A DNA stretch of 64,000 bases from Candidatus Cloacimonadales bacterium (GTDB lineage: Bacteria > Cloacimonadota > Cloacimonadia > Cloacimonadales > JAIOQZ01), in assembly GCA_963665815.1 (NCBI GenBank), contig OY762463.1, forward strand, positions 2,720,001 to 2,784,000, in the 5' to 3' direction. The translations under genes and the position numbers were made by a program. Position 1 is the stretch's first letter. Every line of letters begins with the position of its first letter. Shown one piece after another: positions 13,000 to 58,968 of this stretch. The notes beneath the pieces were generated by a model. The model ran no database searches and was not told the origin of the DNA. It worked only from the letters and a program-made list of their open reading frames with translations.

Positions 13000-13029
13000 A
13001 AAAAAAGGACTGCTAATTAAGCAGTCCTT
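13000..13029 (-). terminator. Intrinsic terminator for 15172-13053 gene pair
   Basis: AAGGACTGCT-AATTA-AGCAGTCCTT with A run on the + strand. Confidence 0.8.
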
Positions 13030-13052
13030 ATATATTTAACAAATCTGTATTA

Positions 13053-14561: not shown

Positions 14562-14563
14562 GA

Positions 14564-15172
14564 TTAATCTCCTTGAACAGTTGGCCATACAGTTTCTGAT
14601 GTAACAGTAACAACATAGCCCATACCGGTTGTGACGTTCCAGACAGTTTCTGAACCTGTGTATTCAACCCAGTCCTGTGCTGTCTTATCATATTGCATAA
14701 CGCTTGAACAACCAGGGATAGCATTCATTAACTGAGCACAGTCAGTGATATCGGATTGTTCGAAAGGAAGCATTATAAGATTTTTTCCTGATTTCAATGT
14801 ATAGCTTGCATTCTGCACCGGTTTACCATAAACATAGAATGAACTTCCTGCACTCACATGACACATGTAAGCAGTAGCAGGATCTACATTCCAGTCTGGT
14901 GTCCATGGCTGAGCATCGTAGGATTTCCACATTTGAGAATCAGGATTCCAGAAAGATACGTTTTCGCAATTTGTAATGTTATTGTAAATACTGCTTATGT
15001 TTGTTCCGGCTGTAACCTGAAAAGGAGTTGTAAAAACATTATAACCGGAAGAACCATCATTTCCAAGGTCGAATTTTACAAAACCGACAACCTCGGATGG
15101 ATCTGATTCAATTGCGCATAGAAGCAGGGGTACAATAAGTGTTAAGATAATAAGAAAGTACTTTTTTTTCAT
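14564..15172 (-). CDS. Secreted hypothetical protein with two internal repeats
   Basis: Signal peptide; duplicated G.N....PF...I..C..V..(W/Y)....Q.W..Y pattern. Confidence 0.6.
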   Translation of the reverse strand: MKKKYFLIILTLIVPLLLCAIESDPSEVVGFVKFDLGNDGSSGYNVFTTPFQVTAGTNISSIYNNITNCENVSFWNPDSQMWKSYDAQPWTPDWNVDPATAYMCHVSAGSSFYVYGKPVQNASYTLKSGKNLIMLPFEQSDITDCAQLMNAIPGCSSVMQYDKTAQDWVEYTGSETVWNVTTGMGYVVTVTSETVWPTVQGD

Positions 15173-15815
15173 ACACCATTCCTTTGTCTCTTTTTAGTGT
15201 AACAACCATAGTCTATTTGGGAGATGTATGTCAATAAAAAAATCTAATTTAGAATGTTACGACAATGATAGTTTTACAGATGAAAACATTTGCAGTCAAT
15301 AGTAACAGACTTTCAGCCCATGAAATCAGTTCTTCCATTTAGTATTTATGTTACAATTTTAGATACAATATTATACAACTTCATCATACAATAATAAACA
15401 TGTTAATTTATTCCATTAAGATATACTTTTTCTCAATCTTTTATAAAATACTATATAATCAAATATTAATTACAGACAAAAAAATGATATCGGCTTATTC
15501 TTATTAGCAAAAACTTTATAACTATATATTTTTAAAATAATTATTACACTTAAATGACTGTGTTTCGATATAAACACCTTCGTTTTCATATGGAATCTTC
15601 AGTTATTGATCTGTTATCAGGATAAACTTCTATTGTCAACTAAATCCAATATTAGAATAAGCTCTAAAATCATGTCATAATAACCAATAATAAATGATAC
15701 AATTATTATTCATAAATAGCTTGTTATATAAAAAAGGTTCATAATATTGAAAAATAATATTGACATAGAAAATTTAAATAATAGTATTTGTCTGTTTTTG
15801 GATAAAGGAGTTTAA

Positions 15816-16703
15816 ATGGTCGGATATTTATCATTAGCAAAAGCTGCTGATTATCTCGGTTTTCACCCCGAGGTTTTACGGAAAAAGGCATCCCATAACG
15901 AGATTCCTGCCCGTAAAGTTGGAAAGGGAAAGAAAGCACCCTGGCGTTTTGTTAAAGATGAACTTGATGAGTGGATTTCCAATAATCGTAAAATAGAACA
16001 GACTGTTTCAGAGTTCTCTCTGCATGAAAAACATATACTCAGCAATCTTAAGCATACTGATGATATTGAAAAGCAGGAAGAAATGGTCGATACTCTCGGC
16101 GTTGTCGGTTCCGAATTCTGTATAGATGAACTTGTGAAGTTTCTTCAATCACCTTTCGATAATTTAAGATGGCTGACTGTAAGGAGTATAATTTCTATTT
16201 TAAGAGACAAGTCAAAAGAGTACTTATATGATATGCAATTTACAGATCCTTATTTGAAAGTAAGAATATGGATTGCAGGTTACTTCGCAAAACAGGGTGA
16301 TAAGATATCTATACAGAACCTGAAGGATATCTATAATCACAGCAGTGGAAAATATAAACGCTATTGCGTTTACAAACTTGTTGATGTAGAACCGAATAAT
16401 CCTCAGGCTATACAGACAATTCGCGATGGATTGAAGAGTGACCAGCCGGTCATCAGATATAACAGCGTAAGACAATTAAAGGAAATGAATTATCCTGAAC
16501 TTGAGGATGATTTAGTAATGTTCATTTCAACAGAAAAAGAAGAAAAAATTTTGTTAAAAGGAATTGAAGTTGCCGGTCAGAAGAAAATTCAGAAATCTAT
16601 ACCATTTTTGCAGAAGATTATTCAGGAAAGCACAAATGATGTAGTAAAAAGGAAATCTGCTCTGGCAATTGCAGAAATGTTTTCAACTAAACAACAAACA
16701 TAA
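15816..16703 (+). CDS. Excisionase/MerR-type HTH (HTH_17) fused to HEAT repeats
   Basis: YLSLAKAADYLG...IPARKVG...WRF...LDEW followed by HEAT-like helical repeats; AAGGAG RBS. Confidence 0.85.
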   Translation: MVGYLSLAKAADYLGFHPEVLRKKASHNEIPARKVGKGKKAPWRFVKDELDEWISNNRKIEQTVSEFSLHEKHILSNLKHTDDIEKQEEMVDTLGVVGSEFCIDELVKFLQSPFDNLRWLTVRSIISILRDKSKEYLYDMQFTDPYLKVRIWIAGYFAKQGDKISIQNLKDIYNHSSGKYKRYCVYKLVDVEPNNPQAIQTIRDGLKSDQPVIRYNSVRQLKEMNYPELEDDLVMFISTEKEEKILLKGIEVAGQKKIQKSIPFLQKIIQESTNDVVKRKSALAIAEMFSTKQQT

Positions 16704-16719
16704 AACCAATGGAGGAATA

Positions 16720-17949
16720 ATGAGAGCAAGAATGATACTTTTATCAGCTTTGTTTTTAATTTGTCTCAGCAGTATGAATGCTGCAACTATAACTTATGAA
16801 GCCGTTACAGACGGAACAGTAGCAAGTCCTAACTATACTTTACTTCCTTGGCCTGATGGCTCTAATGAAACAGTTAACTTGCCTTTTTTTGATACCAGTA
16901 TGGGAACATTAACAAAAGTTGATATTACTGTATCAAATTATCTCAGACAATCTATTTCCGTAACTAATACCGGTGCAGCTCCTGCGAATACAAGAGTAAG
17001 AGCTGGTTGTGATGCCTACTGGAATGGTGTTAGAAATCAGGGTATTGACACTCCTGATATACTCATTCAATACAATACAGGTTATCAAGATTATGCAATT
17101 GGCGAAACAAAGGAATGGAACAACGTAGAAAGTAATAATTCTCAGATATTTGCTTATACTCAAACCAGCGACTTATTGTACTTTTCAAATTCCGGTACTT
17201 TCGATATGACAATATGGACAGAAGAAAATGTTACATTAGCAGGTACAACAAGCAATATCGAAGTTGTTCTCTCTGCAAATGCATATGCTTATGCAAAAGT
17301 TGTATATACCTATGACCCAAGTCTTCCTGTAGAACTTTCTTCCTTCAGTGCAATTCAAACATCAACAAACGATGCGGAAATTATCTGGGAAACTCAATCA
17401 GAAACAGATCATATTGGGTTTAACATCCTTAAAAACGAAACTGAAAATACAGAATCTTCACAGAAAGTTAATGCTGTTATTATCCCAAGTTCAGGTACAT
17501 CAAATGGTGGAGAATATTCATTTGTTGATGATGATGTTGATGAAGAAGTGACCTATTACTACTGGCTTGAAAGTGTTTCCTTCGGTGGAAATGTAGAACT
17601 TTACGGTCCTGTTTCAGTCAGGATTGATTTTAAAGAAGATGAAGAAGAAGATGCACCTAATGAAGCATATGCAATCAATGAAATTAAATCAGTCTATCCA
17701 AATCCATTTAATCCTTTAACAACTATAGAGTACAATATAGTTGAAGACAGTCACGTTAGCATTGAAGTATATAACCTTAAAGGTCAAAGAGTAACAACCC
17801 TTGTTAACGAATACAAGGATGCAAAAACTTATAATGTTACATGGAATGGTAAAACAGATTCAGGAACAGATGTTACTTCAGGTGTATACTTTGTGAAAAT
17901 GCAAACAGAAAACCAGGTTTACACAAAGAAAGTTGTACTAATGAAATAA
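16720..17949 (+). CDS. Secreted protein (choice-of-anchor-E-like N domain) with FlgD-Ig/T9SS-type C-terminal domain
   Basis: Signal peptide; LPFFDTSMGTLTKV; LPVELSSF; YPNPFNPLTTIEY...KKVVLMK; GGAGG RBS. Confidence 0.8.
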   Translation: MRARMILLSALFLICLSSMNAATITYEAVTDGTVASPNYTLLPWPDGSNETVNLPFFDTSMGTLTKVDITVSNYLRQSISVTNTGAAPANTRVRAGCDAYWNGVRNQGIDTPDILIQYNTGYQDYAIGETKEWNNVESNNSQIFAYTQTSDLLYFSNSGTFDMTIWTEENVTLAGTTSNIEVVLSANAYAYAKVVYTYDPSLPVELSSFSAIQTSTNDAEIIWETQSETDHIGFNILKNETENTESSQKVNAVIIPSSGTSNGGEYSFVDDDVDEEVTYYYWLESVSFGGNVELYGPVSVRIDFKEDEEEDAPNEAYAINEIKSVYPNPFNPLTTIEYNIVEDSHVSIEVYNLKGQRVTTLVNEYKDAKTYNVTWNGKTDSGTDVTSGVYFVKMQTENQVYTKKVVLMK

Positions 17950-17972
17950 ATTAAGATAAACTCCTATTTCTC

Positions 17973-17996
17973 AAGGCTGTCATATGACAGCCTTTT
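17973..17996 (+). terminator. Intrinsic terminator
   Basis: AAGGCTGTCA-TA-TGACAGCCTT-TT. Confidence 0.75.
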
Positions 17997-18065
17997 CTTA
18001 TGTCAAAAATCATTGACAAAATTTCATTATAAAATTCCATAAGAAAAATTATATATGAGGACAAT

Positions 18066-19355
18066 ATGTATAAAATAATACTACTTTCTATACTTCTAAT
18101 AGGAATAATGAGCTGTGATAATCCCTCTACAGGTATAAACTCAAATGCTGATGTCTCAGATGAAATAGTTTATAAGGATCTCAAGGGTACAGTAGTTGAC
18201 TGCATTACGTATGAAATATTCAGCAATGCAAAAGTAAAAATTAAGAACGATAAGTACACTTATGAAACTGTGACTGACAGTACAGGGCTTTTCCATTTCA
18301 CTGATATTGCTGCTGGTAACTATACAGTTTTCACCGAACTTGTATGGCAGGGAGTAACTTTCAAAGACTCATTAGAGGATTTTTCAACAGATGATGCCTT
18401 TAGTAAATTTGCATTATGCAAAGTTTCAAGCAGTATTGTGGGTAATATTCTTCATGAAATGCATAGTGCAAACAATTATTCTAATGAAGTAAGTATTATT
18501 GGTACAGATATTAAAAGAGTAGTAGCTTCAAGAACTGACTTCATGATCAACGGAATTATGCCGGGGGATAGGGAGTTTCTAATCATAAATGGAAGTGCTA
18601 CATCTCCTGACTATATCTGGTCAATAAACCTTAAACCAGGTGGAATTCTACCAATTGGGATCTTCGTTCCAAGTATCTTTGATACAGTAAGATACAATTA
18701 CAATGATTATGTATCAGTCAATGAATATAATGGAGAAGATATAGTATTTATCAACGATATATATTATTATGCAATTGATAAATCTCTTTTCAGCTATAAT
18801 CCTGCAACTGAGACTAAAACAGAAATATATAATGATGATAATTGGGCAAACTTCTCTATTTGTACAGATCATGATGACAAAATTTTCATTTCCGGATCTT
18901 ACAGAGATAACTCAGCTACATTTGAAAGAAAATGCTGTGTTTATTCCATTTCAGAGAGTGCTGTGACTGAAACTATTGAATTTGATTTTATTAATTACAG
19001 TACTGAACTGAGTTATTCTATTTTACATAACTCACTGATTCAGATATACGGTGAGACAATCAGAGTTTATGATGTTTCTTCCGGAGCTGCAAATACTACC
19101 TCTTTCGACTATCCTGGTTATCATTCTGACTGCGATTTTTATGTTTGTGAAAATAATAATGTTATTCTGTGGCAAGATGGATTATTCAATATTTACAATA
19201 GTATTGATGATATGACAATTATCAAATCTTTTAAAATCATAAATCCTCATGATCCGGACAAAAGGCTAAATGGAGATGTAAAAATAGTAGAACTGGATGG
19301 TTATTTATACTTAGTAAGTCACAACTGCTTCAGAAGATTGTATTTTGATGAGTGA
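18066..19355 (+). CDS. Lipoprotein with carboxypeptidase-regulatory-like Ig domain and probable beta-propeller
   Basis: Lipobox IMSC; LKGTVVD...TDSTGLFHF...GNYTV. Confidence 0.65.
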   Translation: MYKIILLSILLIGIMSCDNPSTGINSNADVSDEIVYKDLKGTVVDCITYEIFSNAKVKIKNDKYTYETVTDSTGLFHFTDIAAGNYTVFTELVWQGVTFKDSLEDFSTDDAFSKFALCKVSSSIVGNILHEMHSANNYSNEVSIIGTDIKRVVASRTDFMINGIMPGDREFLIINGSATSPDYIWSINLKPGGILPIGIFVPSIFDTVRYNYNDYVSVNEYNGEDIVFINDIYYYAIDKSLFSYNPATETKTEIYNDDNWANFSICTDHDDKIFISGSYRDNSATFERKCCVYSISESAVTETIEFDFINYSTELSYSILHNSLIQIYGETIRVYDVSSGAANTTSFDYPGYHSDCDFYVCENNNVILWQDGLFNIYNSIDDMTIIKSFKIINPHDPDKRLNGDVKIVELDGYLYLVSHNCFRRLYFDE

Positions 19356-19365
19356 TACTATAGAA

Positions 19366-19501
19366 TTGCAAATGAATACTACACTATCCCAATCCCCTTG
19401 CAAGTAATCACAGAAACTTTGCAATGGTGGACTTGAATGGTTCTAAAAGCTGTTATAGGAGTGCATTGATTGTGTCAATGCGAAGTCGACATAGTCGATT
19501 T
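19366..19501 (+). repeat. Structured intergenic repeat, copy A (paired arms, insert, double hairpin)
   Basis: 19421-19485 matches 24103-24167 at 58/65; collinear with the reverse copy 53816-53896. Confidence 0.85.
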
Positions 19502-19567
19502 GCTCCGATATTTAAGCCAACCCTACGATTGTCTCTACGCGGTGTATGAACAGCAGAGAGTTTTCAG

Positions 19568-19595
19568 ATGTAGAGACGTTGCATGCAACGTCTAA
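19568..19595 (+). repeat. GTAG-type REP palindrome, left flank of NLR-like gene
   Basis: ATGTAGAGACGTTGCATGCAACGTCTAA, the exact reverse complement of 23942-23969. Confidence 0.88.
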
Positions 19596-19695
19596 ATATA
19601 CTCCCTGAAGGAGGTTAATTGCATTTAAGCGAGCTCAAGTCTTTCCAAACTTCGTTTGTAACAACTCAAGTTCACGCATAGATTTTTCACCATGA

Positions 19696-22600
19696 TTATT
19701 GTTCCCTACTTTCCTGCTCCATATTATTTGTAACCTGCTCAAACAACTGCCACAGGGGTTCCTCTATAGAATCCTTTATCTCTATGGCAGGTGTACCATT
19801 TGCATAATTTATAAGAAACTGTGAAAACTGTTTTATCTCTGCCATTTCCTGTGGGATGCCTGCATGTATCTGCTGCAGTTGCTCCAATTTTTCTGCTCTA
19901 TCCACAGCCATAACAGGCATACTGGCAACACTATGCGCCATTTGTATCAATTGTACAAGTTGTTGTGTAAGATTATTTTGATTATTATCTTCTTCCTTGT
20001 AATTCGATACAATATGCTGCTCAATTTCCTCATAATCCAATCCCATTTTATCTGTAACTTTTCTTAGAAGTTCTATGCCTGTTTTCATTAAGAGATTAAC
20101 GCAATTATTGGCTACAATTTTTGCATTGGGTGATCTTAGATTAACAAAAATAAAGATAGCTTTAAGGTAATATTCCAATGCTTTTTCCGGTTGACCGATA
20201 TCATCAAAAATATTACCCATGTTGCCATAGGAGTTTGCCTGCCCCAGCAAATTTCCAATTTGTATTTTCAAATCTAAAGACTTTTTATGATATTCCAATG
20301 CTTTTTCCGGTTGACCGGTATCATCAAAAATATTACCCATGTTGCCATATTGATTCGCCTGTCCCTGCAGGTTTCCGAGTTTAACATTTATTTCAAGTGC
20401 TTTCTCATAATGTTCCAATGCCTTCTGAGGTTCACCTGTTCGATAGTAGATGCTTCCCATGTTGCCATAATCATCAGCCATTCCTCTAATATTTCCAAGT
20501 TTTTCATCTATCTCTAATGCTTTGCTATGATATTCCAATGCTTTCTGAGGTTGACCTGTATCAGCAAAAATCAAACCCATGTTGCCATATTGATTTGCCT
20601 GCCCCTGCAGATTTCCAAGACTGACATTTATTTCAAGTGCTTTCTCATAATACTCCAATGCTTTCTGAGGTTCACCTGTTCGATAGTAGATGCTTCCCAT
20701 GTTGCCATATAGAGTAGCCTGTCCCTGTAGATTTCCAAGCTTAGCATTTATTTCAAGTGCTTTCTCATAATATTCCAATGCTTTCTGAGGTTCACCAGTA
20801 TCAGCATAAATCAAACCCATGTTGCCATATTGAGCAGCCTGTCCTTGCAAATTTCCGAGCTTAACATTTATTTCAAGTGCTTTCTCATAATATTCCAATG
20901 CTTTCTGAGGTTCACCAGTATCAGCATAAATCAAACCCATGTTGCCATATTGAGCAGCCTGTCCCTGTAGATTTCCTAGGCTGATATTTATTTCAAGTGC
21001 TTTCTCAAAATATTCCAATGCTTTTCCCGGTTGACCGGTACGATAGTAGACGCTTCCTATGTTGCCATATTGGTTTGCCTGTCCCTGCAGGTTTCCGAGC
21101 TTAACATTTATATCAAGTGCTTTCTCATAATATTCCAATGCTTTCAGAGGTTCTCCTGTATTGAAATAAATATTACCCATGTTGCCATAGGAATTTGCCT
21201 GTCCCTGCAGATTTCCGAGCTTAACATTAATTTCAAGTGTTTTCTCATAATATTCCAATGCTTTCTGAGGTTCTCCTGTAACTAAATAAATAATGCCCAA
21301 TCTATTCATAACTTCAGCTCTGTATTCTTCCGAGATATTGGTTTCTAAGGATTCAAGATTCAGGTTTCTGGCAAACTCAACATACCCCCAAATTATCAAT
21401 TGGTCTTCAACAGACAAAGCTACTTCAACAGCCTTATCAAATTCCTCTGCAAGTAAATAGTGTGTTCTGACTGCAAGGTGATTATCAACAGTTCTGTTAT
21501 TCTCAAAAACAATATTGCAATACTCCGCAGCTTTTATGTTAAGCTGTTTAAACTCTAATTTTTTCATTGTATCATAGAAGAATTCTGCAGTGAGTCTATG
21601 GGTATAGAAAAGGTGTTTCTCATTTTCTCTTATGTGCACAACAAGGGAAAGGTTCAAGAGCTTTTCCATTAAATCCAATTCAAAATCTCCAATCAGGTGT
21701 GCAATTCCATCTGTTTCTACCGGGCTTTTGTATATGGAAAGTGCTTTTAATATGCGGTTCTGTTCTTCAGTCAGCAGGTTAGTTAGTTCCTGCAAAACAA
21801 ATGGAGCAAATTCTTCTTTACTGCCTGTTCTTAGTTTTGCTTTCAGTTTGTTAATTATCTTGTGGAACTTCTTTTTCTCAATCTCAAAGAGTTTAGTAAA
21901 TCTGCTTTCTCCGGGGAGCAGAGCATCCAGCAGATCAAGTGCACGCGGATTTTTCCCCACAGTCTTATAAATCTCTCTTAAATTCTTCTCATTCAACTGC
22001 TGCAAATTGTTACAGAAATACATTCTTTTATTAATATCGGTATCAGTATATTCCGGTACTTCTATAATGTGGTTTTCAAATTCCGGAACATTGTAGCGAG
22101 TGGACACCAGCAGAATGGATTTTTTACCATTAAACAGCCTTTCAATTATCTTGAGCAGTCCATAAGCCTCATCATGCACTTTGCAATCATCCTGCAGGTT
22201 CTGGTTATCTTCAAAGTTATCAAAAACAATTGTCCAGTTATGTTCATGCATATACTGATTATACAGATAAGTCAGCTTCTCTTTTGCATTGTTAAGCTTA
22301 GAGAGTTCATCTTCCATTTTTTTCGCTTCAGTATCATAAGTTTTGGCAATTTGCAGACAGAGCTTTTCCATAAAACCTGCCTGAGTTAACGGTCCCTGGA
22401 ATTCAATGATCTTATAGTTGTCTCTGGCACAGAACGAGAGTATTCTCGCTGTCAGAGTAGATTTTCCTATTCCTCCCGGACCTTTCAGGATCACCATTGG
22501 ATCGTGCTTTTTTACTCGGAAAATAATCTCCCGAATCTGTATACGCCTGCCGATAAACCCACGCGGTACTGTATTAGTCGTAAAAGTCTTTTTAGAAGCT

Positions 22601-23823
22601 GAAGATTCACCTTCTATTCTATGCTGAGAGAAATCTTTTCTGGAGATACCGGTTTCGGATGAGAAAAGTTCAGGGATATCAACTTCGGTTTTGTTTTGTC
22701 TTTTTTTATTGCTTTCCCATCTGGCAATAGCTTCTTTACCTGCTGAGAACGCTTCGGAAATAGTTTTGTCTTCTATAAGTGCATGGAATAATCCTATATT
22801 AAAAATCATGGAAGCATCATGTGAAATAGATTGTTTCATACCTATTACATAAGGGATACCGGATTTATGCAGTGTTTCTGCAATACTGAGATAAACCCCT
22901 TTTTCGTTTGCTTTGGCAGAATGGCAGGAGGACAGTATCACCAGTTTCAGGTCAACACCATCGGTTTTCAGTTTCTCCAGTTCCTGTGCCAGCTCTTCTC
23001 CTGATACAAATTTCTTTTCTACCGTATTATCCTCTGTAAGCTGTTCGAACAGGAGAAATGTTTTGCCGTCTTTGTCTTTTGTGCCATGGGCAGTAATCTG
23101 CAGAATATCGTGTTTACCGTTTTTCAGGTAGCCAGCCATATCATAGAGGGTAGAGTTAACCATATCGGGTATATCGAGGAACAGATCTGCCTGAGAGAAA
23201 TCACTGAGAGAGTCCAGCATAACCTGTTGTTCTTTCTCGTAGAAGATGTCGGAGTCCGGAGGACTGGCAGTAACCGAGAGGATTTTGATTTGGGGTGGGG
23301 TGGGTATAGCAGGGATGGAGTCTTCAACTAATTCTCGTATTCTACTCACAATGTCGTCATCTATTTCTTTCTTGCTATCCAGCTTATTCATTATTTGCAG
23401 TAAGAGATTTATCACAACTGCTATACTATTGCTGTCCTCAAGATACTTTATGTAATACTCTTTTAACTCCTCTATTCTATTATCCAAATCATTTATACTT
23501 ATCAGACTGTTTATAACATCAGGCATATGATCAAGTTTTCTGAGGTAATTAGATAATTCTGTTGTTGAGACTTGCAGACGTTCAATCTGTCTGCCTACCT
23601 CATATATATCCCATAAAAAATTTTGATCCTCCATAGTATACATAACAGATTTGAATGGAAACTCGAAAGCTTTTTCAAAGGCTTTCATATAAACAGCTAC
23701 TTTGTCAAGTGAGGCCTTGTTAAGTCCTGTTTGAATTGAATCTGCATATTTCTTAATATCGTTTACACTTACACCAAATATACTTGCTAAGCCTGCAGCA
23801 ATATCGAAAATAATCTTTGCCAT
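19696..23823 (-). CDS. NLR-like protein: N-terminal helical module + CHAT (caspase-like) protease + STAND/NB-ARC ATPase + TPR array
   Basis: CHAT dyad ITAHG / LSSCHS; FIGR, Walker A GPGGIGKST, Walker B IVFDNFE, GKNPRAL, YTHRL; ten 40-aa TPRs; AGGAGGTG RBS before ATG at 23823. Confidence 0.88.
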   Translation of the reverse strand: MAKIIFDIAAGLASIFGVSVNDIKKYADSIQTGLNKASLDKVAVYMKAFEKAFEFPFKSVMYTMEDQNFLWDIYEVGRQIERLQVSTTELSNYLRKLDHMPDVINSLISINDLDNRIEELKEYYIKYLEDSNSIAVVINLLLQIMNKLDSKKEIDDDIVSRIRELVEDSIPAIPTPPQIKILSVTASPPDSDIFYEKEQQVMLDSLSDFSQADLFLDIPDMVNSTLYDMAGYLKNGKHDILQITAHGTKDKDGKTFLLFEQLTEDNTVEKKFVSGEELAQELEKLKTDGVDLKLVILSSCHSAKANEKGVYLSIAETLHKSGIPYVIGMKQSISHDASMIFNIGLFHALIEDKTISEAFSAGKEAIARWESNKKRQNKTEVDIPELFSSETGISRKDFSQHRIEGESSASKKTFTTNTVPRGFIGRRIQIREIIFRVKKHDPMVILKGPGGIGKSTLTARILSFCARDNYKIIEFQGPLTQAGFMEKLCLQIAKTYDTEAKKMEDELSKLNNAKEKLTYLYNQYMHEHNWTIVFDNFEDNQNLQDDCKVHDEAYGLLKIIERLFNGKKSILLVSTRYNVPEFENHIIEVPEYTDTDINKRMYFCNNLQQLNEKNLREIYKTVGKNPRALDLLDALLPGESRFTKLFEIEKKKFHKIINKLKAKLRTGSKEEFAPFVLQELTNLLTEEQNRILKALSIYKSPVETDGIAHLIGDFELDLMEKLLNLSLVVHIRENEKHLFYTHRLTAEFFYDTMKKLEFKQLNIKAAEYCNIVFENNRTVDNHLAVRTHYLLAEEFDKAVEVALSVEDQLIIWGYVEFARNLNLESLETNISEEYRAEVMNRLGIIYLVTGEPQKALEYYEKTLEINVKLGNLQGQANSYGNMGNIYFNTGEPLKALEYYEKALDINVKLGNLQGQANQYGNIGSVYYRTGQPGKALEYFEKALEINISLGNLQGQAAQYGNMGLIYADTGEPQKALEYYEKALEINVKLGNLQGQAAQYGNMGLIYADTGEPQKALEYYEKALEINAKLGNLQGQATLYGNMGSIYYRTGEPQKALEYYEKALEINVSLGNLQGQANQYGNMGLIFADTGQPQKALEYHSKALEIDEKLGNIRGMADDYGNMGSIYYRTGEPQKALEHYEKALEINVKLGNLQGQANQYGNMGNIFDDTGQPEKALEYHKKSLDLKIQIGNLLGQANSYGNMGNIFDDIGQPEKALEYYLKAIFIFVNLRSPNAKIVANNCVNLLMKTGIELLRKVTDKMGLDYEEIEQHIVSNYKEEDNNQNNLTQQLVQLIQMAHSVASMPVMAVDRAEKLEQLQQIHAGIPQEMAEIKQFSQFLINYANGTPAIEIKDSIEEPLWQLFEQVTNNMEQESREQ
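20138..21320 (-). repeat. Intragenic tandem array of about ten 120-bp TPR-coding repeats
   Basis: GTTGCCATA recurs at 20221, 20341 and every 120 nt to 21181; 20745-20844 is identical to 20865-20964. Confidence 0.97.
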
Positions 23824-23941
23824 CTTCACCTCCTGAGAGTTGGTCAATTGCTGGCAGAAATTGAGAAAAAGGTCAATTCATTTTTTTGTGCTACGTTACA
23901 ACTACACCGGGGAAATCCGTAATATATTAAATTTTGTTTAC

Positions 23942-23969
23942 TTAGACGTTGCATGCAACGTCTCTACAT
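23942..23969 (-). repeat. GTAG-type REP palindrome, right flank
   Basis: TTAGACGTTGCATGCAACGTCTCTACAT; degenerate third copy at 24196-24219. Confidence 0.88.
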
Positions 23970-24010
23970 AGCGATGTGAAACATCGCTGTGCGTTGTTGA
24001 TTAAATGACC

Positions 24011-24167
24011 TTGCGAATGGTACTTAGACCCGTAGATGTTTTCGAAGAAATACATCCAGAATTGACGTAGATGTTTTCGAAGAAACACATCCAGTGAAGT
24101 TCGCAATGGTGGGCTTTAATGGTTCTAAGGGCTGTTTTGGGAGTGCATTGACTGTGTCAATGCGAAG
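24011..24167 (+). repeat. Structured intergenic repeat, copy B, containing a tandem 29-bp hairpin duplication
   Basis: Arms TTGCGAA (24011) / TTCGCAA (24100); CGTAGATGTTTTCGAAGAAA(T/C)ACATCCAG at 24031 and 24066. Confidence 0.85.
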
Positions 24168-24308
24168 AATAACTAATAATATTTGTTCAAAACAAAGATG
24201 TTGCATGCAATGTCTCTACGAAGTTGGGCGGATCCATCGATTATGTGAATAAACTCACCCCTGGCTAAATTATAACTACGCCTTAAACCTCAATCAATTA
24301 CTGAACTT

Positions 24309-25619
24309 TTACTTCCCGTTAAGCTGATTTTCCTTAAGCTTCTTCCACCATTTCAAACGTTTTTCTATATCTTTCTCAAATCCGAATTTGGAAGGTGTAT
24401 AATACTCTTTTTCGCTCATGTGTTCCGGGAAATACTTCTGATAGAAATATCTGTTATCATGGTCATGTGAGTATTGGTAATCTTTGCCGTAATCGAGGTC
24501 TTTCATCAATTTTGTGGGTGCATTTCTTATAACCAGCGGAACAGGTAAATGACTTGTTTTAATTGCGTCAGCAGCAGCCATCTTATATGCTGAGTAAACA
24601 GCATTGCTTTTGGGTGCTGTTGCCAGATAAACAACCAGCTGAGCCAGAGCTGTGTTTGCTTCCGGCATACCAAGTGTATGAATTGCCTCTTTAGCACTTA
24701 TTGCCTGGACAAGTGCCTGCGGATCAGCAAGTCCTACATCTTCTGAGGCAAAACGAATCAGCCTGCGAACAACATACATCGGGTCTTCTCCGGCTTCCAG
24801 CATACGAGCCAGCCAGTACAGACCGGCCTGAGTATCGCTGCCGCGCAGAGACTTATGCAGAGCTGATATCACATTATAATGCTCTTCTTTATTCTTGTCA
24901 TAATTGAGTGTTCTGGAGTTAATAATCCTTGCAGCAAACTCGGTAGTAATAACCTGATCTTTCATGGTGTAATTCAGGATCAGTTCAAGACTGTTAAGAG
25001 CTCTTCTGGCATCTCCCCCACACTGCATCATCAATAAATCAAGCACATCCTCAGGAAGCTCTCTATCAAGCTTTTTCAGAGCATTTTTCAGAATATCAGC
25101 AATAGAACCATCCGACAGTTTTTCCAGTACTATAACCTGACATCTCGACAATAAAGCAGGGATAACCTCAAAAGAAGGATTCTCTGTAGTTGCACCAATG
25201 AGAATGACAGCTCCGGTTTCGATATGATGCAGAAATGCATCCTGTTGAGCCTTGTTAAATCTATGTATCTCATCTATGAAAATTATTGTACGTTTATTCT
25301 GTTCTTTAAGGCTGTATTCAGCTTCCTGCATAACAGCTTTCACATCTTTTATACTGGAAAGCACAGCACTGAAAGCCACAAACCTTTCTTCGGAGTTTTT
25401 CTCAATATATCTGGCAATAGTTGTTTTACCGCATCCGGGAGGTCCCCACATAATAATCGACGAATACTTACCGGTAGAAATCATTCTTCTGAGCAAGGTA
25501 TTTTCTCCCAGAATCTTGTCCTGTCCGAGTATCTCTTTCAAGTCTGAGGGACGCATCTTTTCGGCAAGCGGGATGTTTGTACTCTGTTTTTCACTATCGA
25601 ATAATTCAAGCTGTTTCAT
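24309..25619 (-). CDS. rarA: Replication-associated recombination protein A (MgsA)
   Basis: PLAEKMRP, GPPGCGKTT, DEIHRFNKAQQD, ISALHKSLRGSD. Confidence 0.96.
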   Translation of the reverse strand: MKQLELFDSEKQSTNIPLAEKMRPSDLKEILGQDKILGENTLLRRMISTGKYSSIIMWGPPGCGKTTIARYIEKNSEERFVAFSAVLSSIKDVKAVMQEAEYSLKEQNKRTIIFIDEIHRFNKAQQDAFLHHIETGAVILIGATTENPSFEVIPALLSRCQVIVLEKLSDGSIADILKNALKKLDRELPEDVLDLLMMQCGGDARRALNSLELILNYTMKDQVITTEFAARIINSRTLNYDKNKEEHYNVISALHKSLRGSDTQAGLYWLARMLEAGEDPMYVVRRLIRFASEDVGLADPQALVQAISAKEAIHTLGMPEANTALAQLVVYLATAPKSNAVYSAYKMAAADAIKTSHLPVPLVIRNAPTKLMKDLDYGKDYQYSHDHDNRYFYQKYFPEHMSEKEYYTPSKFGFEKDIEKRLKWWKKLKENQLNGK

Positions 25620-25633
25620 GTCTGACTCCGAAT

Positions 25634-26554
25634 CTATACAACAATAGAAAGTTTTTTACATAAATTGTAGATTGATAAAATTTCATTGGGCTTTGTGCGG
25701 TATATCTCTCCATCATAATAAACAGGCAGAGCAAATTTGGATTTCACCTGAATAATGGATGACCTTTTCATAGTAACTTCCTTTTCCCGCATGTGTTCTG
25801 CCTTGAGAAGCTTTGGAAAGATAGAAAACAGTCTTTTGAAACTCACTTCCTGAGCCAGGCAGATATCAAATAGACCGTCATCACAAACTGCATCGGGGGT
25901 TAATTGAAATCCTCCACCGCAGTATCGAGTATTACCCACAGCCATAAGTAAAACCTTAGCTCTGAACAGATCATTATATGTCCTTATCGCAATAGGTATA
26001 TTTCTGAACTTGAATAATGCTATCACCAAAGCTGTCATATATCTGGCAATTCCTCTGAGAAAATGAATCTTCGAAGCTACAAGAGCTGTTTCAGCATCAA
26101 GCCCGATGCCAAAGCTGTTGATAAAAAAGCGAACTTCTTTGCAACAGGTTATTTTTCCAACATCAACTCTTTTCAACTCATTATCGAATAATTTCTGTAA
26201 CAATTTTTCAGGGCTGTCATTAATATTCAAGGCTTTGGCAAAATCGTTTCCGGAACCGCACGGGATAAGACACAACTTAATTCCACGCACATCTCTTTTG
26301 GACATAACTGCATTTACAACACAGTTCAAAGTACCGTCTCCACCTACAGCAATAAATGTCCTGATTCCTGCTTTTATGTCTTCTATAACAGAGTTGTAGG
26401 CTATTTCGTAAGTTGAAGATTTTAAAATCCGGCACTTCAGATTTCTGTTATGACAAAAATGGTTGATTGTCTTAAGATATGTGACAGATTTCCCTTTCCC
26501 TGCTTTGGGATTGGCAATAACTGACCAGGTTCCGGTTTTAACTTTCTTCTTCAT
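25634..26554 (-). CDS. Diacylglycerol kinase family lipid kinase (YegS/DgkB-like)
   Basis: NPKAG, GGDGT, GSGNDFA, GGG; ATGA overlap with upstream gene. Confidence 0.9.
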   Translation of the reverse strand: MKKKVKTGTWSVIANPKAGKGKSVTYLKTINHFCHNRNLKCRILKSSTYEIAYNSVIEDIKAGIRTFIAVGGDGTLNCVVNAVMSKRDVRGIKLCLIPCGSGNDFAKALNINDSPEKLLQKLFDNELKRVDVGKITCCKEVRFFINSFGIGLDAETALVASKIHFLRGIARYMTALVIALFKFRNIPIAIRTYNDLFRAKVLLMAVGNTRYCGGGFQLTPDAVCDDGLFDICLAQEVSFKRLFSIFPKLLKAEHMREKEVTMKRSSIIQVKSKFALPVYYDGEIYRTKPNEILSIYNLCKKLSIVV

Positions 26555-27294
26555 TTTTGTTGATATATATGCTTGAAGTACTGATTTGCACAAGCAGATC
26601 CGATATCTGCAATTCTATGCTTTGCAGCAAAATCTTTAAATTCACTCGAAGGTATAAATTTCACTTCTGTATGCTCATGATACTCTATTGCCATCTTCAT
26701 CTTGTCTGCAAACTCGTGCTCGGTGTGTTTTAAACGGCAGTAGAACAGGAACTCCGGTTTCATATTACTGAAGCTTCTTCCCATCCCCGTGCAGATCAAA
26801 GTATCAATATCATTTGTTTCAACATTCAGCTCTTCCACAAGTTCGTTGCGGATTGTCGTATAAGGGCTATCGTGATGCGGTTCCATGTTTCCACCGCAAA
26901 AATGCCAGATTCCTCTGGATTCAGCAACTTTGTGAGATCTCATACCAATAATAAGCTTATTATCAGCTGTTTCGACAACTACACAGGCGGCAATACAATT
27001 TGCCAGCTCATTATTATCCTTAATCTCACTGAGGTTTCTTATATTAGTACCAATATATGATTTATAGGTGGTTGTAATAGTTTCCACCAGAAGCATGACC
27101 CCTTCTATTCGTGAGCTGAGAAAACCGGTTACTTCTCCGTCCCAGAGATCAAGACCTTCACTCAGGGCTTTATTCCAGCCTTTATCAATCAGCTTTTTAG
27201 TATCCTCGGAGTATTTTTTGGGTCCTTCCTGAGGTAGAATATTGATGCTATTCTCACCGAACAATGAGTCATGCAAAATTTCGTATTTTGTCAT
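26551..27294 (-). CDS. NUDIX hydrolase
   Basis: Nudix-like box GGNME...IRNELVEELNV. Confidence 0.75.
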   Translation of the reverse strand: MTKYEILHDSLFGENSINILPQEGPKKYSEDTKKLIDKGWNKALSEGLDLWDGEVTGFLSSRIEGVMLLVETITTTYKSYIGTNIRNLSEIKDNNELANCIAACVVVETADNKLIIGMRSHKVAESRGIWHFCGGNMEPHHDSPYTTIRNELVEELNVETNDIDTLICTGMGRSFSNMKPEFLFYCRLKHTEHEFADKMKMAIEYHEHTEVKFIPSSEFKDFAAKHRIADIGSACANQYFKHIYQQK

Positions 27295-27297
27295 AAT

Positions 27298-27996
27298 TTA
27301 GTATTTATAACGTTTCTGTAATTTTTTGAGGATTATAACAAACTCACCTTTGGGTAGTTCAGAGGTCATTGTATCTAGCTCATCGAGGTTTCCCCAGAAG
27401 ATCTGTTCTTCAGGTTGAGTCAGTTTGTAGAAAAGCATTGCCTGCCTTTTCCCCCCAAGTATCATTTTCATATCTCTCAGAACCTGTTTCATTCTGTAAG
27501 GAGCTTCCAGGAATACAAGATCTATGTTATTGTTCAGTTTTCTAATTGCGTTGATTCGATTTTCCCTGTTTGGCGGGAGAAATCCATAATACTGAAAGTT
27601 ATCTAAAGGTAATCCTGAACACATTAAGGAAGCCATAATTGAGGATGGTCCGGGAATAGGTATTACAGGAATATTCATCTGATGGCATTGCCAGACAAGA
27701 TTATTGCCCGGATCAGCAAACAAAGGTGTTCCAGCATCGGAAATAAGAGCCAGAGCTTCTTTCTCATTCAGCAGGCGATTAATAATCTCCTTTGTGCTTT
27801 CTCTCTCGTTATGTTCGTTCAGAAGAATGAAGTCCTTCTTTATATCCAGAGCTCTCAACATACTGCAGCCCTGCTTTCTTTCTTCCATAATGACACAGTC
27901 ACATTCTTTAAGTACTCTTAAAGCTCTCAGAGTAATATCTTCCATATTGCCTATAGGCATGGCGACTATATAAAGTCCATATTTAAGTTTTTCCAT
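27298..27996 (-). CDS. rsmI: 16S rRNA (cytidine1402-2'-O)-methyltransferase
   Basis: LYIVAMPIGNMEDITLRAL, SDAGTP, IPGPSS, EAPYR, KGEF. Confidence 0.93.
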   Translation of the reverse strand: MEKLKYGLYIVAMPIGNMEDITLRALRVLKECDCVIMEERKQGCSMLRALDIKKDFILLNEHNERESTKEIINRLLNEKEALALISDAGTPLFADPGNNLVWQCHQMNIPVIPIPGPSSIMASLMCSGLPLDNFQYYGFLPPNRENRINAIRKLNNNIDLVFLEAPYRMKQVLRDMKMILGGKRQAMLFYKLTQPEEQIFWGNLDELDTMTSELPKGEFVIILKKLQKRYKY

Positions 27997-30208: not shown

Positions 30209-30384
30209 AATTTGCGAATTATCCTGAATATAGTTTATATGTCAATAAACCATTAACAATTGCAAAAGCAAAGAAATTTCTTGAATAAAATAAATCATAA
30301 TTATTTATGACTTTAAGAGATCTTTAACGTGTGAGTAATTGATATTCTGCATTAGAAAGATCTTAATAAGAAACAGGAATACAG

Positions 30385-54225: not shown

Positions 54226-54344
54226 ATATTCTCATTTAAAAGAAGCAATCTTTTATCATATTTTTTACCAAAATATGTAGTTGACTCGATTTGATTTCAT
54301 CAAATCTCATCGATACTTCAGCCAGGTACAAAACTCTAAATATC

Positions 54345-58937: not shown

Positions 58938-58968
58938 CAGTTACTTTATTTCATTCATATACGAATAA

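What the first reader, a model, noticed from the sequence alone, without database searches (positions are those of the whole stretch)
19696..23823. Single-gene NLR-like receptor with built-in caspase-like protease and no adjacent substrate gene
Seen: the order is a ~170-aa helical N-module, a Pro-rich linker (IPAIPTPP), CHAT with an intact His (TAHG) / Cys (SSCHS) dyad, a STAND/NB-ARC ATPase (Walker A/B, GxP-like and MHD-like motifs), ten TPRs and a helical tail. Known: STAND-TPR proteins (Avs, bacterial NLRs) sense phage proteins, and CHAT proteases cleave partners such as bacterial gasdermins or Csx30. No such partner is encoded next to it; the neighbours are a lipoprotein and rarA, separated by repeat clusters. 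Inference: a one-component sensor-protease defence or cell-death switch, acting in cis on its own N-module or on a host target.
Basis: partly seen in the sequence, partly recalled or inferred. Interest (0 to 1): 0.85.

Follow-up and report, generated by a model that had tools for sequence, protein, structure and literature searches.

The report
Caspase-like NLR with swappable head
This is an intact, accessory bacterial gene that fuses a caspase-like protease to an Apaf-1-like ATPase switch and a repeat sensor, a known but untested kind of immune-type protein, here carrying a rare, uncatalogued N-terminal module that is shuffled among such proteins.

Summary
Window 19696-23823 (-) encodes one intact 1375-aa protein. 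In order it has a helical N-module, a Pro-rich linker, a CHAT protease, a STAND ATPase, about ten 40-aa TPR units and a tail.

- **CHAT protease:** caspase fold, Z 21.6 to SAVED-CHAT. The His246/Cys300 dyad is kept in 47 of 50 and 49 of 50 relatives.
- **ATPase:** NB-ARC/Apaf-1-type STAND with invariant nucleotide-binding motifs.
- **Distribution:** accessory. The core was found in 1 of 40 related genomes, and the gene is missing from the syntenic slot of a same-genus genome.
- **Substrate:** no gasdermin-like or other partner gene lies next to it.

The new point is modularity. CHAT-STAND-TPR is a conserved chassis that begins exactly at the linker. Close relatives carry unrelated modules in front of it (TIR in 16 of 38). 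This gene's N-module matches no Pfam family. It also heads NACHT, NB-ARC and TPR-PIN proteins that have no CHAT.

Most likely this is a one-gene NLR-type abortive-infection switch. Trigger binding would drive oligomerisation, which activates the protease, with the N-module as a second output. Cis-release of the N-module is possible but untested.

It is a new variant of a known, functionally untested kind. Interest is moderate.

The parts
19696..23823 (-). Whole gene, 1375 aa plus stop (stop codon 19696-19698)
   Evidence: ORF list and translation. The product is an exact match to a catalogued protein seen on one 3.96-Mb contig.
23829..23834 (-). Shine-Dalgarno-like AGGAGG, 5 nt upstream of the ATG at 23823
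   Evidence: Read directly from the sequence.
23317..23823 (-). N-module, residues 1-169: all-helical, starts with a short hydrophobic helix, matches no Pfam family
   Evidence: AF2 predicts 10 helices at pLDDT 42-77. All Pfam hits have E > 0.02 and are below cut-off. Profile relatives head NACHT, NB-ARC, TPR-PIN and unknown proteins.
23293..23316 (-). Pro-rich linker IPAIPTPP (residues 170-177); marks the boundary between the variable head and the conserved chassis
   Evidence: Homolog alignments start at query residues 174-183 in most relatives. Junction listing.
22624..23292 (-). CHAT caspase-fold protease, residues 178-400; His246 codon at 23086-23088, Cys300 codon at 22924-22926
   Evidence: Pfam CHAT 50 bits. 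AF2 pLDDT about 90-98. VIA Z 21.6 to SAVED-CHAT 8tl0_A. Foldseek hits to Csx29, CED-3, separase and MALT1. Dyad kept in 47 of 50 (His) and 49 of 50 (Cys) relatives.
21424..22566 (-). NB-ARC/AP-ATPase-type STAND NTPase module, residues 420-800; Walker A at 22459-22482
   Evidence: Motifs located and invariant or nearly so in 47 rows. AF2 pLDDT 84.9. Apaf-1, PH0952, CED-4, MalT and plant NLR matches. Profile hit to 6mfv, E 5e-33.
20134..21411 (-). TPR sensor array, residues about 805-1230; strict 40-aa units
   Evidence: Pfam TPR_1 in 10 stretches. TRF: 120 nt x 9.4 copies, 79% match, with a 360-nt higher-order period. Variability is concentrated at unit positions 9, 10, 16, 19, 20, 25, 31, 39 and 40.
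19699..20133 (-). C-terminal tail, residues 1231-1375
   Evidence: Sequence only. Its first part aligns to a conserved cap in the family consensus. Not folded here.
19421..19485 (.). 65-nt direct repeat, downstream copy (partner at 24103-24167, 89% identical)
   Evidence: Only 3 near-full copies exist in the 3.96-Mb genome, and two of them bracket this gene.
24103..24167 (.). 65-nt direct repeat, upstream copy; synteny with the same-genus genome resumes here
19568..19595 (.). 28-nt palindromic element, inverted partner at 23942-23969; REP/MITE-like
   Evidence: Of 24 hits in the genome, 20 cover at least 70% of its length.

Best explanation
This is an accessory, single-polypeptide NLR-type conflict sensor, in effect an apoptosome in one chain.

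**Proposed mechanism:**
1. The TPR array binds a trigger, most likely a protein of a phage or other invader.
2. That releases the NB-ARC-type STAND NTPase to exchange nucleotide and oligomerise.
3. Oligomerisation brings the CHAT domains together and switches on the protease. Oligomerisation also activates the closest solved relative, SAVED-CHAT.
4. The active protease cuts cellular proteins (and possibly the protein itself), stopping growth or killing the infected cell.

**The N-module.** The 170-aa helical head is a separately shuffled cassette. It occupies the place that TIR holds in many close relatives. It also sits directly on other STAND NTPases. I read it as a second, proximity-activated output module. 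Its chemistry is unknown; a membrane-active helical bundle is my leading guess.

**What is shown:** domain identities and folds, intact and conserved catalytic and NTPase residues, cassette swapping, accessory status, and the lack of an adjacent partner gene.

**What is inferred:** the trigger, oligomerisation, protease activation, the substrates, the role in defence, and the N-module's function.
For: **Protease**
- The fold model has pLDDT 90-98 over residues 178-400.
- It aligns to SAVED-CHAT 8tl0_A at Z 21.6, rmsd 2.7 A, 193 residues. Other clan-CD proteases score Z 9-13. Foldseek gives E 7.6e-10 to 8tl0.
- His246 is kept in 47 of 50 and Cys300 in 49 of 50 core-bearing rows. Five further rows of the 55 are N-module-only pieces.

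**Switch**
- The model of residues 410-830 matches Apaf-1, the PH0952 STAND, CED-4, MalT, NRC2, ZAR1, RPP1 and Avs3.
- The Walker A G/G/G/K and the GxP Pro are invariant. Walker B Asp, sensor-1 Arg and His-Arg of the MHD-like motif are at least 90% conserved in 47 rows.

**Sensor**
- The array consists of homogenised 40-aa TPR units with a few variable positions.

**Family size**
- 3228 cluster representatives match at E<=1e-3, 410 at <=1e-10 and 46 at <=1e-30. Nearly all align from query residue about 165-180 onward.

**Cassette swapping**
- Of 38 near-subfamily members with an N-extension: 16 TIR, 11 P0021-type, 3 P0005-type, 2 P0013-type, 2 this type, 4 singletons.
- hhalign probability is below 1% between all types. 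The positive control scores 100%.

**N-module on other bodies**
- N-module plus NACHT in G190 and G158; N-module plus NB-ARC(-TPR) in G002.
- N-module plus TPR-PIN in P0177.
- N-module heading long proteins with no Pfam family in G001 and G163.

**Accessory status**
- The core was found in 1 of 40 related genomes, and the N-module alone in 1 more.
- The stretch 18001-24100 is absent from the same-genus genome G001, between flanks that are 81-85% identical.

**Defence association elsewhere**
- The G006 chassis homolog sits two genes from a Drt8 reverse transcriptase (E 5.8e-123).
- The G190 N-module-NACHT protein matches PADLOC candidate PDC-M54A (E 9e-20) and lies next to a CARF protein (E 2.6e-107).

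**Precedents (passages read)**
- SAVED-CHAT is activated by filament formation (10.1101/2023.06.23.546230).
- A caspase-like defence effector cleaves EF-Tu and many other proteins without a dedicated substrate gene (10.1101/2024.10.24.620036).
Against: **No defence context here.** The window itself shows no defence island or mobile element. The neighbours are rarA, a lipid kinase, rsmI, T9SS cargo proteins, an MCP and an ECF sigma factor. No window neighbour hits PADLOC specifically.

**Not caught by defence models.** On the protein itself, PADLOC v2 gives only generic TPR hits and a weak SAVED_CHAT hit (6.3e-5). No Avs or NLR model matches.

**No sign of recent transfer.** GC is 37.8% against 36.0% for the genome.

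**Specificity may point elsewhere.** The closest solved CHAT is substrate-specific: it cleaves one partner, PCaspase. A dedicated substrate encoded elsewhere therefore cannot be excluded.

**Nothing functional was tested.** No trigger, oligomer, cleavage or phenotype was examined, and no RNA data were available.

**The effector reading of the N-module is weak.**
- The fold model is low-confidence.
- The module has no family match.
- Only 7 aligned members are in alignment A3 (9 proteins carry the module in all).
- P0177 already carries a PIN effector, which fits an adaptor or regulatory role as well.
Confidence: 0.6

Rival explanations
1. Effector release in cis. The constant CHAT is a processing enzyme rather than the killer. 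After assembly it cuts the low-complexity linker and frees or unmasks the variable N-terminal cassette (TIR in relatives, the helical module here), which is the real effector.
For: - The variable-head, constant-protease layout starts exactly at a Lys/Pro-rich low-complexity linker before a conserved Q[IV]K[IV]L strand.
- Kaur et al. proposed autopeptidase activation by a 'constant caspase' next to variable modules in EACC1/EACC2 systems (PMC8195603, passage read).
- The closest solved CHAT is a specific processing protease, not a promiscuous one (10.1101/2023.06.23.546230, passages read).
Against: - The same N-module works at the head of NACHT or NB-ARC proteins with no protease present.
- TIR heads on STANDs are known to act through proximity without cleavage (established knowledge, recalled).
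- At least 4 near-subfamily proteins start with M and have no more than 11 residues before the first CHAT strand (P0027, P0043, P0051, P0055), so CHAT can be the only head. Those start sites are gene calls on metagenome contigs and were not checked.
- No conserved residue pattern in the linker is shared across cassette types, apart from the frequent basic residue before the Q.
Confidence: 0.2
2. The N-module is an adaptor rather than an effector. Like death-fold or EAD domains, it would recruit a separate partner through homotypic contacts, and the protease would be the only enzymatic output.
For: - It occurs on proteins that already have an effector: CHAT here, PIN in P0177.
- It is promiscuously fused to different STAND bodies, as EADs are (PMC7159879 and PMC8195603, passages read).
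- One weak sub-threshold CARD_2 hit was seen on the G158 copy (E 0.11), which is not evidence by itself.
Against: - The EAD principle needs two or more copies per genome. This genome has exactly one copy, even at E<10 in a six-frame profile search.
- G001 also shows one match.
- No small stand-alone N-module protein was found in 232 genomes of the phylum. The 'shorter' length class of the large protein catalogue was not searched.
Confidence: 0.1
3. It is not a conflict system. Instead it is a regulatory STAND (MalT/AfsR-like), or a signalling protease in the manner of the CHAT-bearing anti-sigma factor DdvA, serving a physiological response of the host.
For: - Ordinary chromosomal neighbourhood.
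- MalT (8bob) and DdvA (8rot/8rw5) are among the structural matches.
- No PADLOC system call on the protein.
Against: - No DNA-binding or transmembrane domain was detected.
- Patchy distribution: the core was found in 1 of 40 relatives.
- Absent from the syntenic slot of a same-genus genome.
- The head swaps with TIR.
- Two related loci are associated with defence genes.
Confidence: 0.07

Closest known systems
'All-in-one' bacterial NLR-like proteins with an N-terminal CHAT/caspase-like head (Dyrka et al., 10.1101/2020.01.06.895854; Kaur et al., PMC7159879 and PMC8195603; bacterial Apaf-1 orthologues with a caspase-like head, PMC13581612). Passages read.
   Same: A caspase-fold protease sits directly N-terminal to an AP-ATPase/NB-ARC-type STAND, with a C-terminal repeat sensor. 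A cell-death or immunity role is predicted but untested.
   Different: - This protein carries an additional, uncatalogued 170-aa module in front of the protease.
- The sensor is TPR, not WD40.
- The host is a Cloacimonadales bacterium rather than the filamentous or multicellular taxa those papers emphasise.
SAVED-CHAT of the Haliangium type III-B CRISPR/CBASS hybrid (PDB 8tl0; 10.1101/2023.06.23.546230, abstract and passages read)
   Same: It is the closest solved protease domain (Z 21.6). Its activity is switched on by oligomerisation of a fused sensor module.
   Different: - The sensor there is a cA3-binding SAVED domain forming filaments, not a STAND-TPR module.
- SAVED-CHAT has a dedicated, co-encoded substrate (PCaspase). 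None lies next to this gene.
Type IV Thoeris, TIR plus caspase-like ThsE (10.1101/2024.10.24.620036, passages read)
   Same: - A caspase-like protease is the abortive-infection effector and needs no dedicated substrate gene.
- TIR and caspase-like domains are functionally paired there, as they are physically paired in 16 of 38 close relatives of this gene.
   Different: - It is a two-gene system driven by a small-molecule signal.
- It has no STAND or TPR module.
- This gene has no TIR at all.
Avs / AVAST antiviral STANDs and bNACHT proteins (Avs recalled from Gao et al. 2022, not read here; bNACHT 10.1101/2022.07.19.500537, passages read)
   Same: - Tripartite logic: N-terminal output, central STAND, C-terminal repeat sensor.
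- Single-gene systems.
- Some bNACHT proteins have N-terminal helical domains of unknown function (NNH).
- Avs3 (8dgc) is among the fold matches.
   Different: - No PADLOC Avs or NLR model matches.
- The NTPase resembles the NB-ARC/Apaf-1 type rather than scoring as NACHT (20.2 bits against a cut-off of 26.7).
- The N-module matches no Pfam family, so no catalogued NNH family was detected.
- Two stacked head domains are present instead of one.
Bell / HeLo / MLKL / CC-type helical death domains (10.1101/2020.01.06.895854, passages read)
   Same: - A helical domain of about 100-170 aa at the extreme N-terminus of NLR-type proteins.
- It starts with a short hydrophobic helix, often with an acidic residue near the start.
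   Different: - No sequence or profile similarity was detected.
- The fold model is low-confidence and was not searched on its own.
- The best 15-residue Kyte-Doolittle mean for the first helix is only 0.9-2.1 across 7 members.
- This is resemblance only.

Membership tests
CHAT / clan CD caspase-fold cysteine protease (PF12770) | Profile match above the curated threshold | tested here: met
   50.0 bits against a cut-off of 24, E 3.8e-13, residues 234-368. The match covers only positions 140-268 of the 289-position profile.
CHAT / clan CD caspase-fold cysteine protease (PF12770) | Caspase-hemoglobinase fold | tested here: met
   Z 21.6, rmsd 2.7 A, 193 residues aligned to 8tl0_A. Csx29, DdvA, caspases, metacaspases, legumain and gingipains score Z 9-13. 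Foldseek results.
CHAT / clan CD caspase-fold cysteine protease (PF12770) | Catalytic His-Gly and Ser/Ala-Cys dyad present and conserved | tested here: met
   TAHG (His246) and SSCHS (Cys300). His is kept in 47 of 50 and Cys in 49 of 50 relatives.
CHAT / clan CD caspase-fold cysteine protease (PF12770) | Proteolytic activity and P1 specificity | not testable with these tools
   Needs biochemistry.
STAND NTPase, AP-ATPase/NB-ARC type | Walker A, Walker B, sensor-1 Arg, GxP and MHD-like His present and conserved | tested here: met
   Positions located. The Walker A G/G/G/K and the GxP Pro are invariant; Walker B Asp, sensor-1 Arg and His-Arg of the MHD-like motif are at least 90% conserved in 47 rows.
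STAND NTPase, AP-ATPase/NB-ARC type | NBD-HD1-WHD(-HD2) fold as in Apaf-1/CED-4 | tested here: met
   Model pLDDT 84.9. Apaf-1 3sfz E 7e-11, TMq 0.61; 6mfv TMq 0.62; CED-4, MalT and plant NLRs also match.
STAND NTPase, AP-ATPase/NB-ARC type | Curated-threshold match to one named STAND clade (NB-ARC, NACHT or nSTAND1) | tested here: not met
   NB-ARC 20.9 bits against 23.5; NACHT 20.2 against 26.7; nSTAND1 26.7 against 27.1. Only generic AAA_22 passes, at 28.8 against 27. The clade assignment therefore stays open; superfamily membership does not.
Avs (antiviral STAND) defence systems | Match to an Avs or NLR model of a defence-system library | tested here: not met
   PADLOC v2 gives only TPR, C3a156 and a weak SAVED_CHAT hit. 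DefenseFinder was not available.
Avs (antiviral STAND) defence systems | Defence-island association | tested here: inconclusive
   None in this window. The one chassis homolog with context (G006) lies near Drt8. That is a single locus, and a wider survey was not possible.
Avs (antiviral STAND) defence systems | Phage-protein sensing and protection from phage | not testable with these tools
   Needs experiment.
CHAT/protease-gasdermin systems | Gasdermin or other substrate gene adjacent to the protease gene | tested here: not met
   The neighbours are a lipoprotein-like gene (convergent) and rarA. The whole-genome Pfam Gasdermin search was silent, but so were all of its controls, so it is uninformative.
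Type IV Thoeris | Separate TIR gene producing a signal, plus a caspase-like effector with a signal-binding domain | tested here: not met
   The protein has no TIR, and no TIR gene is adjacent. TIR is fused in 16 of 38 close relatives.
Bell/HeLo-like helical death domain | Profile similarity to HeLo, HeLo-like, SesA, Rx_N, RPW8 or MLKL families | tested here: not met
   No such family was listed at E<=10 for 6 N-modules of this type. To my recollection the Bell domain itself has no Pfam model.
Bell/HeLo-like helical death domain | Helical bundle with a hydrophobic N-terminal helix; membrane permeabilisation | tested here: inconclusive
   The module is all-helical but pLDDT is 42-77. A hydrophobic start is seen in 7 of 7 members, with a Kyte-Doolittle mean of 0.9-2.1. 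Activity cannot be tested here.
Effector-associated (adaptor) domains, EAD/bDLD principle | Two or more copies per genome, one on the core protein and one on an effector | tested here: not met
   One copy in this genome at E<10. One match in G001.

The most novel reading that the evidence does not exclude
[quoted passage not shown] After trigger-driven assembly, CHAT would cut the Lys/Pro-rich linker and release the N-module. That module would be a previously unrecognised family of membrane-attacking helical death domains. This would be gasdermin/HeLo logic compressed into one polypeptide. The variable-head chassis would then be a general 'protease-launched effector' platform, with TIR, this module and at least three other unknown heads as interchangeable warheads.
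Probability: 0.12. Interest if true: 0.8.

Novelty: new variant of a known kind. Interest (0 to 1): 0.45.

Why it matters
Caspase-like proteases fused to STAND/NLR switches are common in bacteria. The Thoeris IV paper states that their roles in Avs-type proteins are unknown.

This family offers a compact one-gene test bed for three questions:
- Does oligomerisation switch on a caspase-like domain in a bacterial 'apoptosome'?
- What does the protease cut?
- Why is a second, interchangeable head (TIR or one of several unknown helical modules) stacked in front of it?

The N-module is a small, uncatalogued domain family that travels between different immune-type bodies. That behaviour is the usual signature of an effector or signalling module worth characterising.

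Tried and rejected
**A result of mine that was wrong**
- The first clustering of N-extensions gave one cluster of 104, which I took to be TIR. This was a single-linkage chaining artefact.
- A TIR profile seeded from 9 Pfam-annotated members hits only 19 of 128.
- Coverage-filtered clustering gave the figures used in this report.

**Searches for more N-module relatives that gave little**
- Word-index search of residues 1-178: self only.
- Profile search with 'longer' lengths: self plus P0177.
- Genome-contig scan: only the G001 locus.
- Metagenome-contig scans with A2 and A5: none.
- ESM Atlas: best score 0.78, below the useful range.

**Other searches that came back empty**
- Viral-contig scan with the NTPase alignment: none.
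- Single-sequence PDB search of the NTPase segment: nothing below E 0.06. The profile and the fold search did succeed.
- Pfam Gasdermin in the own genome: no match, but the control genomes were silent too, so it is uninformative.
- Relatives of the G006 downstream 313-aa ORF in this genome: none at 1e-3.
- The search of earlier findings by sequence and by place: nothing.

- Sequencing runs: no RNA holder was listed, and read laying was not run.
In the VIA search of the 420-residue model nearly all matches lie on the CHAT part, so the N-module's fold remains untested.

**Literature**
- Term searches found no paper naming this N-module or the variable-head CHAT-STAND-TPR pattern. One search found 1 paper, which was unrelated.
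- These searches cover open-access text only. Supplementary tables of the STAND surveys were not examined and may list the family.

Full report
**1. The observation**

The window holds a 1383-codon open frame at 19696-23847 on the minus strand, starting from a TTG.

Pfam gives these matches:

| Family | Residues | Score vs cut-off |
|---|---|---|
| CHAT | 234-368 | 50 bits vs 24 (E 3.8e-13) |
| TPR_1 | ten stretches | passes |
| AAA_22 | 439-539 | 28.8 vs 27 |
| nSTAND1 | 422-594 | 26.7 vs 27.1 |
| NACHT | 443-578 | 20.2 vs 26.7 |

- the linker IPAIPTPP at 170-177
- TAHG (His246) and SSCHS (Cys300)
- Walker A GPGGIGKS at 448-455 and Walker B IVFDNFE at 532-538
- sensor-1 LVSTR at 572-576
- GKNPRAL at 623-629
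- YTHRL at 740-744

The TPR region is a DNA tandem array of 9.4 copies of 120 nt, 79% matching, with a 360-nt higher-order period. At protein level eight units are spaced exactly 40 residues apart. Variation is concentrated at unit positions 9, 10, 16, 19, 20, 25, 31, 39 and 40.

**2. Folds**

- **Residues 1-420.** A model built on a 55-row alignment has mean pLDDT 77.8. Residues 178-400 score about 90-98. The N-module is predicted as ten helices at only 42-77.
- **CHAT part.** It aligns to SAVED-CHAT 8tl0_A at Z 21.6 (rmsd 2.7 A, 193 residues). This is far above DdvA (12.9), Csx29 (12.1), and caspases, metacaspases, legumain, gingipains and separase (about 9-11). Foldseek agrees, with E 7.6e-10 to 8tl0.
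- **Residues 410-830.** This model has pLDDT 84.9 and pTM 0.81. It matches Apaf-1 (3sfz, E 7e-11, TMq 0.61), the archaeal STAND-TPR protein PH0952 (6mfv, TMq 0.62), CED-4, MalT, NRC2, ZAR1, RPP1, Roq1 and Avs3.
- **Sequence-level check.** A profile of the family also hits 6mfv by sequence over the NTPase part (E 5e-33). The single sequence hits nothing.

The ATPase is therefore an NB-ARC/AP-ATPase-like STAND. No single named clade passes its Pfam threshold.

**3. Conservation**

- Among 50 core-bearing rows, His246 is kept in 47 and Cys300 in 49.
- In a 47-row alignment of the NTPase segment, the Walker A glycines and lysine and the GxP proline are invariant.
- In the same alignment, Walker B Asp, sensor-1 Arg and the His-Arg of the MHD-like motif are at least 90% conserved.

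Both enzymatic modules look active.

**4. The family and its swappable head**

An exhaustive search with residues 1-800 found 3228 cluster representatives at E<=1e-3, 410 at <=1e-10 and 46 at <=1e-30. Almost all align from query residue about 165-180 onward. In pairwise BLAST most relatives start aligning at query 174-183, which is the Pro-rich linker. The conserved chassis is therefore CHAT-STAND-TPR, and what lies in front of it varies.

My first clustering of these N-extensions was wrong. A 104-member 'TIR' cluster arose by single-linkage chaining. A TIR profile seeded from nine Pfam-annotated members hits 19 of 128 N-extensions.

With coverage-filtered clustering, the 38 near-subfamily members (core starting Q[ILV]K[ILV]L) divide as follows:

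| N-module type | Count (of 38) |
|---|---|
| TIR | 16 |
| P0021-type | 11 |
| P0005-type | 3 |
| P0013-type | 2 |
| this gene's type (with P0004) | 2 |
| singletons | 4 |

- The 90 more distant members mostly share one of two conserved non-TIR extensions (clusters of 66 and 20). Three have TIR in front.
- Profile-profile comparison finds no relationship between any two head types (all probabilities below 1%). The positive control P0004 scores 100%.
- At least four near-subfamily proteins begin with M and have no more than 11 residues before the first CHAT strand. These may be bare chassis proteins, although their gene starts were not verified.

**5. The N-module**

- It matches no Pfam family. 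All hits have E > 0.02 and are below cut-off, for six members of this type and for two other head types.
- A profile of it finds 6 of 232 genomes of the phylum, the own genome included.
- In those genomes it sits at the extreme N-terminus of different bodies:
  - directly on a NACHT-type NTPase in G190, and on a weak, sub-threshold NACHT match in G158
  - on an NB-ARC start followed by a separate TPR frame in G002
  - on long proteins with no Pfam family in G001 and G163
- It also heads P0177, a TPR protein with a PIN domain of the TPR-GreABC-PIN kind.
- It also heads P0079, another CHAT-core protein.
- This genome has exactly one copy, even at E<10.
- All seven aligned members start with a short hydrophobic helix. 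The best 15-residue Kyte-Doolittle mean is 0.9-2.1.
- Two metagenome scans and one genome-collection scan added nothing further.

**6. Genomic context**

- The genome is one 3.96-Mb contig. A same-genus record is titled as a Candidatus Cloacimonadales MAG.
- The neighbourhood is ordinary: ECF sigma/anti-sigma factors, a histidine kinase, an MCP, T9SS cargo proteins, rarA, a lipid kinase, a Nudix protein, rsmI, gpsA and ndk.
- No window neighbour hits PADLOC, apart from generic AAA+ hits on rarA.
- GC is unremarkable, at 37.8% against 36.0% for the genome.

The gene is nevertheless accessory:
- The core was found in only 1 of 40 related genomes (G006). The N-module alone was found in 1 more (G001).
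- Against G001, the flanks 13000-18001 and 24100-30877 are conserved at about 81-85% identity.
- The stretch 18001-24100 has no counterpart there. It holds the lipoprotein-like gene and this gene. G001 carries about 22 kb of other DNA in that slot.
- G001's own N-module gene is likewise missing from the syntenic slot of this genome.

The gene is bracketed by small dispersed repeats:
- a 65-nt direct repeat at 19421-19485 and 24103-24167, with only three near-full copies in the genome
- a 28-nt palindromic element at 19568-19595 and 23942-23969, with about 20 copies genome-wide

Two related loci do show defence company:
- The G006 chassis homolog lies two genes from a Drt8 reverse transcriptase (E 5.8e-123).
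- The G190 N-module-NACHT protein matches candidate system PDC-M54A (E 9e-20) and sits beside a CARF protein (E 2.6e-107).
- In G006 a 313-aa ORF of unknown family follows the homolog after 16 nt. It has no relative in this genome.

**7. How it most likely works**

Shown here:
- the domain identities
- the intact, conserved catalytic and nucleotide-binding residues
- cassette swapping
- accessory status
- the absence of an adjacent partner gene

Inferred:
1. The TPR array binds an invader-derived trigger.
2. The NB-ARC module oligomerises.
3. Proximity activates CHAT, and proteolysis arrests or kills the cell.

Two read precedents support the last steps.
- SAVED-CHAT, the nearest solved relative, is activated by oligomerisation (10.1101/2023.06.23.546230).
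- The same paper says the roles of caspase-like proteases on Avs and CBASS are unknown.

The N-module also works on STAND bodies without a protease, and bare chassis proteins seem to exist. The simplest reading is therefore two stacked, independently competent heads. Release of the N-module by cleavage in cis remains possible (about 0.2). An adaptor role is less likely because the module is single-copy in this genome.

**8. Comparison with what is known**

- CHAT and TIR as heads of bacterial 'all-in-one' NLRs are described (10.1101/2020.01.06.895854).
- Caspase heads on bacterial Apaf-1 orthologues are noted (PMC13581612).
- The 'constant caspase plus variable modules' idea is discussed for EACC systems (PMC8195603).
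- N-terminal helical domains of unknown function (NNH) are catalogued for bNACHT proteins (10.1101/2022.07.19.500537).
- Earlier notes of this scan describe TIR-CHAT-STAND-TPR genes as widespread but untested. Those are AI notes and serve only as leads.

I read passages of these papers, not their supplements. My term searches found nothing naming this N-module or the variable-head pattern.

**9. Verdict**

The gene is real, intact and accessory. It is a new variant of a known, functionally untested kind. What is new is an uncatalogued, mobile N-terminal module and the clear chassis/cassette boundary. The sensor-protease design itself is not new. Interest is 0.45.

Noticed in passing
window 19356-19695 and 23824-24308: Both intergenic regions flanking the gene are mosaics of small dispersed repeats. 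They include a 65-nt direct repeat (3 near-full copies in the genome, two of them here), a 28-nt palindromic element (about 20 copies genome-wide), a 29-nt tandem pair at 24031-24094 and a related palindrome at 24196-24219. A partial inverted copy of the 65-nt unit lies at 53816-53859.
   Followed up: partly
window 54278-60082 versus G001:C13:908991-914796: In the same-genus genome this 5.8-kb block lies inverted and next to rarA. It is 96.7% identical, while the surrounding syntenic DNA is 77-85% identical. This suggests a rearrangement at the repeat elements, or a recent exchange of the block.
   Followed up: partly
L005:6467-9712 (G001): A 1081-aa protein carries the same N-module (34% identity over residues 8-145) on a body with no Pfam family and no P-loop motif seen by eye. 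It follows two paralogous 550-aa genes that are conserved in this genome at 2416779-2420087. The N-module gene itself is absent from this genome.
   Followed up: partly
L014:1497-7439 (G190): An N-module-NACHT protein of 1442 aa matches PADLOC candidate PDC-M54A. It lies directly downstream of a CARF-family gene (E 2.6e-107).
   Followed up: partly
L006:7493-14825 (G006): The chassis homolog is followed after 16 nt by a 313-aa ORF of unknown family. Upstream lie a 265-aa unknown ORF and a Drt8-type defence reverse transcriptase.
   Followed up: partly
G000:C1:~98953-101142 (outside the window; L028): This is a second caspase-fold plus STAND-like protein in the same genome. Peptidase_C14 matches at residues 58-230, followed by a weak nSTAND3 match at 304-405, in an open frame of about 1005 aa.
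   Followed up: partly
G000:C1 432276, 786916, 2476435, 3310599, 3869655 (outside the window): Other long open frames carry NACHT (2), NB-ARC (1) or TIR_2 (2) matches above cut-off. The genome therefore has a small repertoire of NLR-like or TIR proteins.
   Followed up: no
window 15816-16703 (+): A 295-aa protein combines an excisionase-type HTH_17 domain with HEAT repeats. It gives a weak hit to a PADLOC HEAT-ARM model (E 5e-4).
   Followed up: no
window 24024-24206 (-): A 60-codon ATG ORF lies upstream of the gene on the same strand. It sits entirely within the repeat elements and is probably not a gene.
   Followed up: no
window 20168-21299: The TPR-coding DNA is a 120-nt tandem array with a 360-nt higher-order period. 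Two adjacent 40-aa units (residues 949-988 and 989-1028) differ at a single position, which points to recent repeat duplication or homogenisation.
   Followed up: partly
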